Assembly (NCBI GenBank): GCA_951406725.2 | Contig: OX597815.1 | Coordinates: forward strand, 80,786,001-80,850,000 | Direction of reading: 5' to 3' | Length of the DNA: 64,000 nt | DNA from: Octopus vulgaris | Taxonomy: Eukaryota | Part shown: piece by piece, positions 581 to 38,963 of the stretch | Layout: each line of letters starts with the position of its first letter | How positions within the stretch are numbered: position 1 is the first letter of the stretch | Notes under the pieces: generated by a model | What the model was told of the DNA's origin: nothing | Seen by the model: the letters and a program-made list of their open reading frames with translations, nothing else | Database searches by the model: none | Position numbers and translations under genes: made by a program

Positions 581-1250
581 TGAGAATGTACAAAAAAAAG
601 GACGAAGACGGGTGTGTAAGCAACAAACAGATGTATTAGTTTAACGCTCAGGAAGTAAGAAAGTCTTTTACGTTTCGAGCCTACGCTCTTTGTCAGAAAG
701 AAACAGAGAGAGAAAATAGAAAAAGGTTTAGTGGCTAGCGATCTATCATGGCAAATGCCGGACAGAGGGGTCACACAGGAGAACCAGGAAGAAGGAGAGA
801 TAATAAAGTAGTGGTAATCCCAAAACGAGGGTGTGCATGTATATATGAGAGCGTGTATGTGCGTGTGGAAGGGGGATGGTGACATTGACGTGTGTGTGTG
901 TGCATGTGTAGGTGTGTGGATGATGGTGTAGGTGCTGGGACGCGGTCAGTGATAGTGTGTGCGCTGGTGTGGGTGCTGGGAAGTGGTCAGTGCTAGTGTG
1001 TGCGGAGTGGTGTGATGTGGTGTGGTATGGTGGTGTGTGGTACGATGGTGTTTGGTGTGGTGGTGTATGTGGTGGTGGGGGAGAGGTGAGAGTGAGGGAA
1101 GCAAGGGTGGGGTCTTATGGATGTGGTGGGTGGGATGGGATTATAGGGATGGTGAGGTTGTAATATGTAGGGTGGGGTAACGAGGGATGGGGTGACGATG
1201 AAGCGCACACATACAAACACGCACCCACATATATTTAATCTGCACATGCA
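581..1250 (-). mobile_element. PLE 3' end/pseudo-LTR-like repeat with hammerhead, followed by GT-rich low-complexity UTR-like tract
   Basis: 581-720 matches 3480-3635 and resembles 10160-10235+12665-12790 and 38833-39020; contains hammerhead core; abuts (TA)n. Confidence 0.65.
665..700 (-). ncRNA. Minimal type I hammerhead ribozyme motif (G8 mutated)
   Basis: Minus strand CUUU-CUGACAA-A-GAGC gtag GCUC-GAAA-CG-UA-AAAG; stems I and II pair. Confidence 0.7.
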
Positions 1251-1584
1251 CACCTGTTTTCTTTTTCCCCGAGAGAGAAGATGGGATGGACGATGTGGTA
1301 TAATGTTAAACAGTGGTTAGAAAAGACCTTCAAAGGCTCTCTAATTCCTGCTTAACGCGTAGCCCTTCAATCAACCATACCTAACTTTTTCTGTTTTTGA
1401 GTTTTCTTTTCAGAGTCAGTTTCATCAAATCTACTTTTCACGCGTTCATTCCCTTAGCATGTTCTTGGAGCACGGAGCAACTTTATTGAATATGTTTCTA
1501 TCTGAAGATGCACCTTGCTGATAATGTCTATGACAGGCTTAATAATCGTGGACAGATGCTCGAAGCTTTTGTTTATATAATAAA

Positions 1585-1976
1585 CTAGCAGTATCGCCCG
1601 GCGTTGCTCGGGTTTGTTCCGACCCTTTAGAATTGGAATTATTGAAAAGTAAAAATTTTGCATTATGTAGCTTGTTATTCTCTTGAAGTGAACATTTTTC
1701 TGGTTGAAATACACCGAAAAATGGCGACGCAGCAGTCAAAAAATCGTAAAAAATAGGGATTTTCATAGCAAAAAGTACCTTTTTGATGTTAATAATTTTT
1801 TATGTTAACATGGTCCGATTTGAATTTTTTTCTTCTACGGAAGGAAGAGCAAACCTTCTTCTATCATACTCTCAATATTGGTTAACTTGCGACGCAGGGT
1901 CTCGGACGAGATAGTGTTAGTTGAAGGCTATCAAACCTGCCACACACACACAGACAACATCAGCTTTATATATAGA
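1585..1976 (-). mobile_element. Non-autonomous Helitron
   Basis: Minus strand starts TCTATATATAAAG, ends with CCCGAGCAACGCCGGG hairpin plus CTAG; inserted between A and T with no TSD. Confidence 0.8.
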
Positions 1977-2282
1977 TTTCCTCATTCTGTTTATAAAAAT
2001 GGGTGGTGTTTACCGATATGTAAATTTATTGTAATTTGCTATTAGTGTTCATTGATATTTTAAATTACATCTCACTAAACATCGAAAATTTTCAATAAAG
2101 CTATCCATTTTATGCCTATCTTTTTTCTTCACTTCATATAAGCATGCCACTTTCAAATTTATTTCAGAGTGCATGTAGAATATAAAGGTACACCAGCTGA
2201 ACCGATTCGGCCCAATCATAGCTACACATACATATGTCAGGGCCCCCATCCCCCCGTGATTCATAATATAACAAGGAATATT

Positions 2283-2679
2283 CTTTTCTACACTAGGCAC
2301 AAGACCGGAAATTTTGGAGTAGGGGGCCAGTCGATTAGATCGACCCAATACGCAACTGGTACTTAATTTATCGACCCCCAAAAGGATGAAAGGCAAAGTC
2401 GACCTCGGCGGAATTTGAACTCAGAATATAAAGACAGACGAAATACCTATTTCTTTACTACCCACAAGGGGCTAAACACAGAGTGGACAAACAAGGACAG
2501 ACAGACGGATTAAGTCGATTATATCGACCCCGGTGCGTAACTGGTACTTAATTTATCGACCCCGAAAGGATGAAAGGCAAAGTCAACCTCGGCGGAATTT
2601 GAACTGAGAACGTAGCGGCAGACGAAATACCACTAAGCATTTCGTCCGGCATGCTAACGATTCTGCCAGCTCACCGCCT
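2283..2679 (-). mobile_element. Dimeric tRNA-derived SINE (MetaSINE-like core)
   Basis: A-box TGGCAGAATCGTTAG, B-box-like GTTCAAATTCC, core GCCTTTCATCCTTTCGGGGTCGATAAA twice; TSD TATAAC(A/G)AGGAATATT at 2267-2282 and 2680-2695. Confidence 0.9.
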
Positions 2680-3340
2680 TATAACGAGGAATATTTTAAA
2701 ATTACAGTCGCAGTTTTACGCACGGCGTAATGAACAGAGGATATTTTAAAATAACAATCATAATGATTGGCGAAAAATAAGTCATTTTCAAAATAATGGT
2801 GGGATTATTTTAGAATAACATTCCTATTATAATAACATTTTCCTGATGCTCACCATTATGCTAAAACCGATTTCTGTTATAATGGCGCATAATTTGCAGA
2901 AGCCTGGCTCATGCATTCTTAAAATCGAGTGATATAACCGCACTATTGCAAACAAGATGAAACTCTAAGCACGTTTACCGACGATAGAGTACACCTTTTA
3001 ATTTACTTTCATTACATTGAACTTCCACATGATATAATTTTTAAATTAGTGGAATGTAATTCGTGTTTGCTGATGATACCTTCATGGAGTTAATATGTCT
3101 ACATTTTAGACGTGTTATCGGACATCTTTCTCCGATCAATAAACGGAAAATACAGTTTACAATCCATGCAGTTATCTATTATATAAAACGTAAAACGCAT
3201 TTTATACAGTCTTCTAATTTCAACTATATATGACTAGGTTCGTTGTCTCATCGTTTACTATACTACGTATTCCATAATCAGATAGTTTTACGCCTTAGTT
3301 TTATTGCGCAATGATGATGATGATGATGATGATGATGATA

Positions 3341-3465
3341 ACAGGGACAGCTAAGATACTTAGGGAGGTCCTTGGAAACTATAAGGTTACCTGTTGCCCG
3401 ATGCTAGGAATTTTTCGTTTCAAGCAGTCTGATCTTTGATGCGTATATGAAACGTGTGAAATGTT
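3341..3465 (+). mobile_element. 3' tip of R4/Dong-like LINE
   Basis: GTAKILREVL, the same C-terminal motif as at 41.8 kb and 59.7 kb; preceded by (GAT)n. Confidence 0.55.
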
Positions 3466-3573
3466 ACAAATATATAGAGAGTTGAAATTTACAGAAAAAA
3501 AAAAACAAAAGACGAAGACAGGTATATAAACAACAAGCAGGTGTATTAGCTTGACGCACGGGAAGGTGAGAGT

Positions 3574-3609
3574 CTTTTACGTTTCGAGCCTACGCTCTTC
3601 AACAGAAAG
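3574..3609 (-). ncRNA. Minimal hammerhead motif in second pLTR-like copy (3480-3635)
   Basis: CUUU-CUGUUGA-A-GAGC gtag GCUC-GAAA-CG-UA-AAAG (A6->U). Confidence 0.65.
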
Positions 3610-36545: not shown

Positions 36546-36560
36546 TATATATATATATAT

Positions 36561-36855
36561 ATCACGTGATCACGTGACCGACCAGACCATCAGATGTTGT
36601 TACACATCGCTGGTCACAATGCGTTCGCATTGTTTTAGCCTTCGAATGACGCCACCCCGCTGGCTAAGCGAGCAGGCCAACAGAAGAAAGAGTGGGAGAA
36701 AGAGTGGTGAAAGAGTACAGCAGGGATCACCACTCTCGTGGAGCTTTTAGGTGTTTTCGCTCAATAAACACTCACAACGTCCGGTCTGGGAATCGAAACC
36801 GCGATCCTGCGAACGCGAGTTCGCTGCCCTAACCACTAGGCCATTGCGCCTCCAC
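36561..36855 (-). mobile_element. tRNA-derived SINE, third family
   Basis: Head GGAGGCGCAATGGCCTAGTGGTTAGG...GGTTTCGATTCC; tail GTCACGTGATCACGTGA into (TA)n. Confidence 0.85.
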
Positions 36856-37624
36856 ATATATAATTATATAGTATATAAATATATATATAAATATGTATAT
36901 ATATCACATTATTACGTGATATATATATACATACATACATATATATGGGTGTGTGTGTATATGTGTGTGTGTGAATATATATATATATATATGTGTGTGT
37001 GTGTGTGCATTTTACACGCATACAACATACACACACATAGGTGCGCGCGTACACAAGCTCATGCTTTTTTTTTTCTCTTTGCTGTCACTCCTTTATATCC
37101 TATGACAATAGCTGTTCTAGTTATTTTCGTAAAATATATTTATACGCCTGTCTTCACACGACTTCCGTAAAGATATTCTTTAACGCCCACACGCTGCGTA
37201 GTGTTTCCATGTCACTGCCATGCATTTGTGAATCGCCACACCCAGCGTGTACGTAGAAATCTTTTGTCGCTTCCTACATGCGTATCTACCTTTTTATCTA
37301 TCTATCTATCTATCTATCTATCTATCTATCTATCTATCTATCTATCTATCTATCTATATATATATATATCTATCTATCTGTATTTGTGTGTGTGTATGTG
37401 TGTGTGTGTGTGTGTGTGTGTTTGCATGCGTGCCAGATTATAAGATCTAAGTGTAGGAAGTTTGTAAGGTTTAAGCGGTCCGTAGTAGGTATAAGAAAAA
37501 AACAACGTTCAGGAACAATAATAATTTATTGGCTTCGAAGGTTTTAGGCTTTTCCCATATCGAAGTTCGATAAGCTGAAAAATATTTTGCCGAACCGTTA
37601 AATTAGAGGGACGTATAATTATTT

Positions 37625-37846
37625 ATTTACTACCCACAAGGGGCTAAACACAGAGGTGACAAACAAGGACAGACAGACGGATTAAGTCGATAATATCGAC
37701 TCCAGTGCGTAACTGGTTAATCGACCCCGAAAGGATGAAAGGCGAAGTCGACCTCGGCGGAATTTGAACTCACAACGTTGCGGCAGACGAAATACGGCTA
37801 CGCATTTCGCCCGGCGTGCTAAAGTTTCTGCCAGCTCTCCGCCTTA
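37625..37846 (-). mobile_element. MetaSINE-like SINE (left monomer of the dimer type)
   Basis: Match to 2450-2680. Confidence 0.9.
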
Positions 37847-38050
37847 TAATGCCAGCAACACCGTCGTCAGGCAGTGGTGCGGGATACACACTGATACAAC
37901 TACGTACACACATACATATGTAATGTATACTAGTGCTTCTCAAAGTGATGGTCCGCGAGCCATCAGCCGCCGGTAGCGGCGAGTTCACAGAAAAGAAAGA
38001 AACGTTATAAAATGCTTATGTAATGCTGTATTACTCATTTACAAAATAAG

Positions 38051-38832
38051 TATATATATATATATATATATATATATATATATATATATATATATATATA
38101 TATATATATATATATATATATATATATATATATATATATATATATATATATATATATATATATATATATATATATATATATATATATATATATATATATA
38201 TATATATATATATATATATATATATATATATATATATATATATATATATATATATATATATATATATATATATATATATATATATATATATATATATATA
38301 TATATTTATATATATATATATGTATGATAGATTGCCGTCAATTCATTCCCTCTTACCTGTTTTGTGTCTGCCTTCCAATTGCTGTTTTTACTGAGATCTC
38401 CCTTTTTAGTAGAAGAAGTAGCTATAACTCTTTGACTGCTATTTCTAAATTCGGTATGTGGTAAGGCAATTCGTTGCCAAACCCTTTATTGCTTACTATA
38501 TATATATATATATATATATATTTATTATATATATATATATATATATATATATATATTTATATATATATATATATATATATATATATATATATATATATAT
38601 ATATTATTTATATATATATATATATATTTATATATATATATATATATATATTTATATATATATATATATATATATATTTATTTATATATATATATATATA
38701 TATTTATATATATATATATATATATATTTATTTATATATATATATATATATATATATTTATTTATATATATATATATATATATATATATATATATATATA
38801 TATATATATATATATATATATATATATATATA
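38051..38832. repeat. Two long (TA)n tracts (38051-38320, 38497-38832)
   Basis: Direct reading. Confidence 0.95.
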
Positions 38833-38928
38833 GTTAATCCAAACAAGAAAGCACAACAACACGAGGACGTGGAACAAATATAGTATTATTAGACGCTCAG
38901 GAAAGAAGGAAAGAAGGAAAGAAGGAGG

Positions 38929-38963
38929 GTTTAACGTTTCGAGCGGAGCGCTTCGTCAGAAAC
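38929..38963 (-). ncRNA. Minimal hammerhead motif with intact core, in pLTR-like repeat 38833-39020
   Basis: GUUU-CUGACGA-A-GCGC ucc GCUC-GAAA-CG-UU-AAAC. Confidence 0.75.

What the first reader, a model, noticed from the sequence alone, without database searches (positions are those of the whole stretch)
665..38963. Family of ultra-minimal hammerheads with covarying stems, beside (TA)n tracts
Seen: four minus-strand copies (665-700, 3574-3609, 12693-12727, 38929-38963) of NUUU-CUGANGA-A-GAGC-loop-GCUC-GAAA-CG-UH-AAAN. Stem I shows a compensatory change (CUUU/AAAG vs GUUU/AAAC), and loop II varies (GUAG, UAU, UCC) while stem II is kept. Stem III is reduced to the palindrome ACGU. Each copy lies in a ~150-700 bp non-coding repeat next to TA-rich repeats. 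Known: Penelope-like element pseudo-LTRs carry minimal type I hammerheads thought to cleave as dimers. Inference: an abundant, TA-targeting, ORF-less ribozyme-bearing family in this genome, either solo pLTRs or retrozyme-like elements. Three of the four copies have core mutations.
Basis: partly seen in the sequence, partly recalled or inferred. Interest (0 to 1): 0.72.

Follow-up and report, generated by a model that had tools for sequence, protein, structure and literature searches.

The report
Penelope retrotransposon tails with altered hammerheads
The four hammerhead-shaped (self-cutting RNA) motifs are real, but they are broken-off tail ends of a known kind of protein-coding jumping gene (Penelope-like) that sit at TA repeats; the only unusual part is that most copies in this genome, including those on intact elements, carry a family-wide change in the cutting core, so they likely cut slowly or not at all.

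Summary
The four motifs are at the stated coordinates and are not chance: strict patterns give 27,125 exact genome matches and 0 for reversed controls. The architecture is the published minimal hammerhead of metazoan Penelope-like elements (PLEs). The 'ORF-less family' idea fails. Copies 1, 2 and 4 belong to two Neptune-type PLE lineages with full hammerhead-ORF-hammerhead units. Copy 3 aligns to the same terminal repeat, but its own ORF was not found (0 of 20 relatives). In an unselected 600 kb, 16 of 16 parsed copies end in (TA)n and 1 reaches the ORF: these are ordinary 5'-truncated ends. Only one stem I pair covaries; stem II does not. The surprise is that the core changes are mostly inherited, not decay: A6U 16,843, U4C 6,405, canonical 3,877. 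The youngest subfamily (ORFs 99.5% identical) has U4C plus a stem I mismatch, yet 20-21 of 22 hammerhead positions are shared between lineages. Best reading: an attenuated, probably protein-assisted ribozyme whose cleavage is not needed before copying. Cleavage is untested. The scan noted PLE ends and variant cores before, on other DNA of this genome (e1-9863077, e1-8663691).

The parts
581..1203 (-). Copy 1: 5'-truncated 3' end (about 500 nt of 3' UTR plus terminal repeat) of a lineage-B Neptune-type PLE
   Evidence: 76-84% identity over about 580-1203 to 20 of 20 fetched relatives; 11 of those 20 continue upstream into PLE ORF sequence on the same strand
665..700 (-). Minimal hammerhead motif, loop GUAG; core CUGACAA (G8A breaks C3-G8; nearest relatives have U6)
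467..580 (.). (TA)n tract at the 3' end of copy 1 (inferred insertion target)
3470..3637 (-). Copy 2: about 170-nt solo terminal repeat of lineage B, short TA at the 3' end, TA run at the 5' end
3574..3609 (-). Minimal hammerhead motif, core CUGUUGA (A6U, the majority state of lineage B)
12652..12816 (-). Copy 3, 5' part: solo terminal repeat of an older group (C) related to lineage A
   Evidence: 74% to L024; 70.6% over 143 nt to the 5' terminal repeat of ORF-bearing L075
12693..12727 (-). Minimal hammerhead motif, core CCGAUGA (U4C), helix III ACGC (U16.1C), loop UAU
10087..10231 (-). Copy 3, 3' part and its TA-rich tract, cut off from the 5' part by a later insertion
   Evidence: aligns to L024 1564-1673, continuing the 5' part that aligns to L024 1401-1575
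10232..12651 (+). About 2.4-kb insert inside copy 3 with a piggyBac-type transposase fragment; TTAA at the left junction
   Evidence: PF13843 E 9e-12 for frame 11897-12421; junctions; terminal inverted repeats not evident
38833..39027 (-). Copy 4: about 195-nt solo terminal repeat of lineage A
   Evidence: 82-87% to terminal repeats of ORF-bearing L075 and 80% to L076, L077
38929..38963 (-). Minimal hammerhead motif, core CUGACGA, stem II GCGC/GCUC (one pair broken), loop UCC
38051..38832 (.). Long (TA)n tract at the 3' end of copy 4

Best explanation
The four motifs are minimal type I hammerhead motifs in the terminal repeats of Neptune-type Penelope-like retrotransposons, left as short tail-end copies beside (TA)n repeats, and they likely act as slow, protein-assisted ribozymes whose cutting is likely not needed before the element is copied. 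Shown: full elements have the layout hammerhead, 5' region, one ORF (RT, CX4CxxC linker, C-terminal GIY-YIG), 3' UTR (about 0.6-0.9 kb in lineage B, about 2.9 kb in the young lineage-A subfamily), hammerhead, about 100 nt, (TA)n. Some form head-to-tail tandems of 6.2 kb. The point where 3' ends join genomic (TA)n is a short TATA(TA) inside the element. Inferred from PLE biochemistry: the endonuclease nicks a TA tract, and the nicked end primes reverse transcription at that internal TATA, about 100 nt downstream of the hammerhead, on RNA that is still uncut. Synthesis usually stops early, giving 150-200-nt stumps (15 of 16 unselected copies lack the ORF). Inferred for the RNA motif: it is still under selection, but the dominant lineages carry A6U or U4C, changes expected to lower the rate. 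Any cleavage would need two copies paired through the ACGU palindrome, plus help from the element's protein. Confidence about 0.93 for the truncated-PLE identity and about 0.5 for 'attenuated but active'; the number below is for the identity.
For: Linkage: 18 ten- or twenty-kb regions around lineage-A ORFs all hold a same-strand motif within or flanking the ORF region; 10 single regions have a stop-free frame of 1008-1061 aa, and 2 regions are tandem arrays. The repeat at both ends of L063 is 1,616 bp at 99.1%. Lineage B: L232 is motif-1098-aa frame-motif, and 20 of 20 long-frame loci have a motif downstream. Homologues carry PF00078, PF26215, PF28514 and PF01541 and include marine invertebrate proteins at 45-58% identity. 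By eye the RT matches Neptune1_Ap in the alignment of PMC8557442. Targeting: (TA)4 or longer begins 93-125 nt after the cleavage site in 16 of 16 unselected copies, against 1,181 of 9,000 random 100-nt windows. Internal TATA at the junction in three subfamilies. Uncut template: none of the 27 aligned ends in the unselected set (window included) starts at or after the cleavage site, in line with PMC11167929, where unprocessed RNA was the main substrate and cleavage needed the protein. Selection: 20-21 of 22 motif positions are identical between lineages whose flanks are 48-73% identical and whose ORFs have dS 1.5 and dN/dS 0.16. N7, loop II and H17 change between subfamilies, and stem I pair 4 is G-C in 74 of 92 A copies and C-G in 90 of 109 B copies. 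Natural U4C and A6C hammerheads keep low activity (PMC3088659).
Against: No cleavage data. In a deep scan of another hammerhead, all single CUGA-turn mutants had low activity (PMC9901934). The youngest subfamily (1,477 exact copies; 96 of the first 100 listed have C4) adds a U-U mismatch in stem I. 13 of the first 100 canonical-core hits listed have G17 (hand count). The double-hammerhead fold lies 8-30 kcal/mol above the best two-strand fold in 11 of 11 copies tried, 8-23 in the 7 taken from outside the window (the model ignores core contacts). For copy 3's group, no ORF was found within 8 kb upstream in 0 of 20 relatives, so its link rests on repeat homology only. The stem I covariation is two or three lineage-level events, not 228 independent ones. 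The Neptune assignment is by motifs and by eye, without a tree. The 228-copy sample is mostly search-selected.
Confidence: 0.93

Rival explanations
1. Same origin, but the motif no longer cuts in the dominant lineages. It is kept as a hammerhead-shaped handle, for example a binding site for the element's RT or an end-defining structure.
For: A6U and U4C account for 23,248 of 27,125 strict matches. Stem II keeps its exact sequence rather than only its pairing. The youngest subfamily has two weakening changes. Genomic copies span the cleavage site. Hammerhead mutants did not affect insertion in vitro for an Anolis PLE, and Naiads thrive without canonical hammerheads.
Against: C3-G8, G5, A9, G12, A13, A14 and the A15.1-U16.1 palindrome are kept across lineages, while N7 takes all four bases (U 40, C 27, A 24, G 18 of 109 B copies). 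That is the pattern expected of a working core. U4 and A6 are positions with known weakly active natural variants.
Confidence: 0.35
2. An ORF-less, non-autonomous retrozyme or SINE-like family that spreads through circular RNA or through its own short transcript.
For: 15 of 16 unselected copies have no ORF. Lineage-B 5' ends cluster at 63-81 nt upstream of C3 (11 of 21), which may mark a transcript start or a short-template route.
Against: The same repeats flank intact ORFs. 5' ends range from 11 to more than 500 nt upstream. Among 273 hits in 211 loci there are only 6 adjacent same-strand pairs closer than 1 kb and no array of three or more. Animal retrozymes are tandem 150-450-bp repeats with mostly canonical hammerheads (PMC7229834).
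Confidence: 0.05
3. The motif is a functionless relic that drifts, and the variant cores are hitch-hikers in successful source elements.
For: Variant cores dominate. G17 and U-U stem I subfamilies amplified. CpG decay is plain in old copies (hand tally of 100 hits).
Against: Motif identity is 91-95% between lineages against 48-73% in flanks, with synonymous sites near saturation.
Confidence: 0.12
4. Chance matches or low-complexity artefacts.
For: The window is rich in simple repeats.
Against: 0 reversed-pattern matches genome-wide in each of the pattern searches; 0 hits in reversed or shuffled controls.
Confidence: 0

Closest known systems
Minimal type I hammerheads (min-HHR) in pLTRs of metazoan PLEs, notably the Acropora digitifera Neptune motif (Cervera and de la Pena 2014, PMC4209133; read: parts 1-2 of 4, supplementary file 2 parts 1-2 of 3; file 1 not searchable)
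   Same: U-rich flank, 3-4-bp helix I, CUGANGA plus one unpaired base, G10.1-C11.1, GAAA-CG-U-H palindrome, thousands of mostly solitary copies ascribed to truncated PLEs. The A. digitifera Neptune motif also has a 4-bp stem II ending in GCUC.
   Different: Their 56 representative motifs have CUGA or the U3-A8 swap; none of the rows I read shows A6U or U4C, but their descriptor required the catalytic boxes. Here those variants are 86% of strict matches. No cephalopod is in their set.
Neptune clade of PLEs (as defined in Craig et al. 2021, PMC8557442; read: passages, section 11, supplement passages and part 2 of 59)
   Same: Single ORF, RT with DKG motif, CX2-5CxxC linker, C-terminal GIY-YIG with CxxC and two His, partial tandems, microsatellite bias. 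RT motifs match Neptune1_Ap by eye.
   Different: The young subfamily has an unusually long CA-rich 3' UTR of about 2.9 kb (unit 6.2 kb). The octopus rows I saw in that supplement are Naiad and Hydra elements, not Neptune.
PAc (Poseidon) of Anolis carolinensis (Frangieh et al. 2024, PMC11167929; read: parts 1-2 of 4)
   Same: Hammerhead upstream of an internal RT start, AT-rich targets, uncut RNA used as template, protein-assisted cleavage (inferred here, shown there).
   Different: Different clade. There the motif overlaps the ORF start and RT starts without homology to the target; here the 3' end coincides with an internal TATA that matches the (TA)n target.
Animal non-LTR retrozymes (PMC7229834, passages; bioRxiv 10.64898/2026.07.22.740005, part 1 of 5 and passages)
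   Same: Type I hammerhead, PLE-related, dispersed monomers occur.
   Different: No short tandem arrays here; repeats are contiguous with ORFs; 5' ends are heterogeneous.
Natural hammerhead core variants U4C and A6C (Perreault et al. 2011, PMC3088659; read: section 8 and passages)
   Same: The same two core positions are altered.
   Different: Those are rare single cases in a viroid and a phage, with tertiary contacts; A6U is not among those I read. Here the variants are fixed in retrotransposon lineages with tens of thousands of copies and no evident tertiary contact.

Membership tests
Metazoan PLE minimal hammerhead (min-HHR) | Helix I of 3-5 bp, helix II with G10.1-C11.1, one unpaired base before helix II, palindromic 15.1-16.1 segment without helix III | tested here: met
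   against the consensus; individual window copies 3 and 4 each break one element
Metazoan PLE minimal hammerhead (min-HHR) | Lies in the terminal repeats of a PLE | tested here: met
   (lineages A and B); group C by repeat homology only
Metazoan PLE minimal hammerhead (min-HHR) | Canonical core CUGANGA...GAAA...UH | tested here: not met
   canonical in 3,877 of 27,125 strict matches; A6U 16,843, U4C 6,405; met only by older subfamilies and reverted copies
Metazoan PLE minimal hammerhead (min-HHR) | Self-cleavage as a dimer | not testable with these tools
   the double-hammerhead pairing can be drawn (4-bp helix III in 10 of 11 copies) but is not the lowest-energy fold
Penelope-like element, endonuclease-containing | Single ORF with PLE-type RT and GIY-YIG endonuclease | tested here: met
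   (PF00078 weak, E 0.002)
Penelope-like element, endonuclease-containing | Pseudo-LTRs from full or partial tandems; frequent 5' truncation | tested here: met
Neptune clade | C-terminal endonuclease with CX2-5CxxC linker and CCHH motif | tested here: met
   read from the frames printed; definition
Neptune clade | RT groups with Neptune references in a tree | not tested
   reference sequences were seen only in a paper's supplement; visual match to Neptune1_Ap
Animal non-LTR retrozyme | Short head-to-tail tandem repeats each with a hammerhead | tested here: not met
   no array of three or more; 6 same-strand pairs under 1 kb among 273 hits; none in the window
Animal non-LTR retrozyme | Non-coding, not contiguous with an ORF | tested here: not met
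   for A and B; inconclusive for group C
Animal non-LTR retrozyme | Accumulates as circular RNA | not testable with these tools
   only assembled contigs were available

The most novel reading that the evidence does not exclude
The most successful Penelope lineages of this genome have turned their hammerhead into a non-cutting or barely cutting RNA element (A6U; U4C plus a stem I mismatch) that is still under strong selection. This would be a natural case of a ribozyme repurposed as a protein-binding or priming signal, perhaps switched by the conserved downstream YGAGC box, which can pair with the 3' strand of stem II and G12.
Probability: 0.3. Interest if true: 0.62.

Novelty: new variant of a known kind. 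Interest (0 to 1): 0.33.

Why it matters
As flagged, it is ordinary: truncated PLE ends with a published motif. The residual value is that the role of PLE hammerheads is an open question. This genome offers sister lineages with canonical, U4C and A6U cores, and a very young subfamily with intact ORFs, so cleavage rate can be set directly against transposition success. It also means that descriptor searches that require CUGANGA miss about 86% of these motifs, so published counts and statements of absence may be too low.

Tried and rejected
Rfam scan: only microsatellite-driven miRNA matches among the 150 shown of 282. ORF search within 1.5 kb of 30 canonical-core hits: no full PLE frame; one N-terminal fragment in L025, seen by eye, gave the query that led to full elements. 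Group C partner: 0 of 20 loci with an ORF hit within 8 kb upstream. RNA evidence: no RNA holder listed on record; 4 runs guessed to be RNA were laid as contigs, which cannot show ends or level, so no conclusion on expression or cleavage. A6U pattern in metagenome contigs: 0 matches. The idea that all U4 copies arise by CpG decay: rejected in part. By hand tally of 100 listed hits, position 4-5 reads TG 26 and CA 6, against TG 5-11 and CA 5-8 at four other CpGs, and a U4 clade exists; single reversions also occur (copy 4). The pile-up of lineage-A 5' ends at -58 is a reference artefact, because the references diverge there. Downstream-box switch: the YGAGC box is in 171 of 228 copies, and mean alternative pairing is 0.27-0.43 against 0.11-0.19 with the downstream part shuffled, but stem II probability hardly changes, so it is only a lead. 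The first dimer energy run used a crossed structure and failed; it was redone. Literature: 'U4C' gave 1 paper, 'A6U' 2 unrelated titles, 'hammerhead Penelope octopus' 4 listed; a 2026 octopus repeat paper has 0 mentions of hammerhead or ribozyme in its main text. Lunse et al. (PLE hammerhead dimers) and Nelson and Uhlenbeck 2008 are not held. The first may already list such variants, so the novelty claim is provisional. The bioRxiv supplements were closed.

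
Full report
Observation. All four motifs are at the coordinates given, on the minus strand. A profile built from 108 fetched copies finds these 4 in the window, 17 in three unselected 200-kb blocks and 0 in reversed sequence. That suggests roughly 80,000 copies genome-wide (my extrapolation from 17 hits), so the window is only about twice the average. None of the four is fully intact: G8A (copy 1), A6U (copy 2), U4C plus U16.1C (copy 3), a broken stem II pair (copy 4). 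The covariation is one stem I pair: G-C in 74 of 92 lineage-A copies, C-G in 90 of 109 lineage-B copies, and mixed in 27 group-C copies (13 G-C, 2 A-U, 6 C-A). These are lineage-level events. The genome is 2.8 Gb in 227 contigs; that it is an octopus is an inference, shared with earlier scan notes.

What they belong to. One canonical-core locus (L025) had a PLE N-terminal fragment just upstream. Searching with it returned 150 scored matches, many in stop-free frames of 800-1,060 aa. In 18 regions fetched around such hits the layout is motif, ORF, long 3' UTR, motif, (TA)n, with 6.2-kb tandems in two regions. In L063 the terminal repeat is 1,616 bp at 99.1%. [quoted passage not shown] Its 484 homologues carry RT, PF26215, PF28514 and GIY-YIG families, and it matches Neptune1_Ap by eye. 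Copy 4 is 80-87% identical to these repeats. For copies 1 and 2, I searched with copy 1's upstream 560 nt: 11 of 20 fetched hits run into PLE ORF sequence on the same strand. Searching with that endonuclease, 15 of the 20 best loci and 20 of 20 loci chosen for long frames have the motif downstream, nearly all with U6, and L232 is a complete motif-ORF-motif unit. Copy 3 aligns with the lineage-A repeat beyond the motif (70.6% over 143 nt), but no ORF was found upstream of 20 group-C loci. It is split by a piggyBac-type insert.

How copies arise. In the unselected sample, 16 of 17 hits could be parsed (one lacked a core). All 16 have (TA)4 or longer starting 93-125 nt after the cleavage position (background 13%), and 1 of 16 reaches the ORF. 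Among all 228 parsed copies, 163 show TATATA 80-129 nt after the site; that window is too short for some subfamilies. Inside full elements the same position carries a short TATA(TA), followed by the 5' region of the ORF. So priming on a nicked TA tract at this internal site is the simplest mechanism (inferred). The 5' ends are scattered, with a cluster 63-81 nt upstream in lineage B, and none of 27 unselected alignments begins at or after the cleavage site. Eight such late starts occur among the search-selected loci, at +33 to +58, not at the site. The templates were therefore mostly uncut (inferred), as found in vitro for the Anolis element (PMC11167929). No short tandem arrays were seen.

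The unexpected part. With the same frame, exact genome counts are CUGANGA 3,877, CCGANGA 6,405 and CUGUNGA 16,843. Freeing positions 4-7 and 16.1 gives 29,488, so the three classes are 92% and the canonical core 13% of that total. In the unselected sample 12 of 16 have U6 and 3 have CUGA. The variants sit on source elements. The youngest subfamily (ORF ends 98.5-99.9% identical, median 99.5%, 45 pairs; 1,477 exact motif copies) has U4C and a U-U pair in stem I. Lineage B (median 94.2%) shows dN/dS of 0.26-0.35 between A6U-bearing copies. Yet 20-21 of 22 motif positions are shared between lineages whose flanks are 48-73% alike and whose ORFs have dS 1.5, and N7, loop II and H17 vary between subfamilies. 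Published data say that U4C and A6 changes lower activity but need not abolish it (PMC3088659), that single CUGA-turn mutants have low activity (PMC9901934), and that even canonical PLE minimal hammerheads cut weakly and only as multimers (PMC4209133). My odds for the dominant variants: attenuated but active 0.5, non-cutting but repurposed 0.35, relic 0.12. Folding does not decide it: the double-hammerhead form is always above the best two-strand fold, and monomer stem II probability averages 0.31-0.39.

Comparison and novelty. The layout equals the min-HHR consensus of Cervera and de la Pena, who already ascribed solitary copies to truncated PLEs. As members, these are Neptune-type PLE ends. 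As ribozymes, the dominant lineages fail the canonical-core test, so I file them as variants that may work like min-HHRs. They are not retrozymes. I found no report of lineage-wide A6U or U4C PLE hammerheads, but I could not read Lunse et al. or one supplementary file of PMC4209133. Other papers seen as passages only: PMC6765202, PMC7229834, PMC6962438, PMC13282606. Earlier scan notes on other DNA of this genome reached the same reading, including variant cores. I had reached it before looking, and those notes are not independent support. Hammerhead numbering and the general roles of G8 and G12 are from my own knowledge.

Verdict. The fixed non-canonical cores are a modest, testable twist. Interest 0.33.

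Noticed in passing
window 43829-44921 (+): 3' fragment of a different PLE: RT thumb plus GIY-YIG with a CxCX5C linker, the Hydra-clade signature. No hammerhead was found after it by my scans; it is not linked to the four motifs.
   Followed up: partly
window 32141-32822 and 55091-55933: Degraded fragments of other PLE ORFs (RT and GIY-YIG pieces; 23-45% to lineages A and B).
   Followed up: no
window 10232-12651: PiggyBac-type transposon remnant inserted into copy 3, so younger than that copy.
   Followed up: partly
L025 1001-1650: Internally deleted lineage-A element: ORF N-terminus joined directly to the 3' terminal repeat; a possible seed of non-autonomous derivatives. L041/L075 has a 5' repeat joined into the ORF with the start deleted.
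   Followed up: partly
L063 (young lineage-A element), 3' UTR: About 2.9-kb CA-rich 3' UTR with two GC-rich islands, unusually long for a PLE; a likely source of CA-like microsatellite DNA in this genome.
   Followed up: no
8-50 nt downstream of the cleavage site, lineages A, B, C: Conserved YGAGC box (171 of 228 copies), complementary to the stem II 3' strand plus G12; possible folding switch.
   Followed up: partly
L007, L026, L027 and similar: Subfamily with G at the cleavage position (GUG), normally a poor triplet; 13 of the first 100 canonical-core hits listed.
   Followed up: no
L116/L117, L207/L208, L064, L184, L264, L028: Inverted pairs of stumps 166-280 nt apart sharing a TA tract, as described for PLE insertions.
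   Followed up: no
window 2327-2680, 9723, 37676, 51053, 53208-54021, 58236-60642: Abundant dispersed repeat of 170-375 nt, at least 14-16 copies in the window, probably a SINE; not examined.
   Followed up: no
window 14770-14830 (+): CUGAAGA followed by a small hairpin and flanked by GGGGU/ACCCC, with UAAA in place of GAAA; possibly a decayed hammerhead of another family or chance; not picked up by the descriptor.
   Followed up: no
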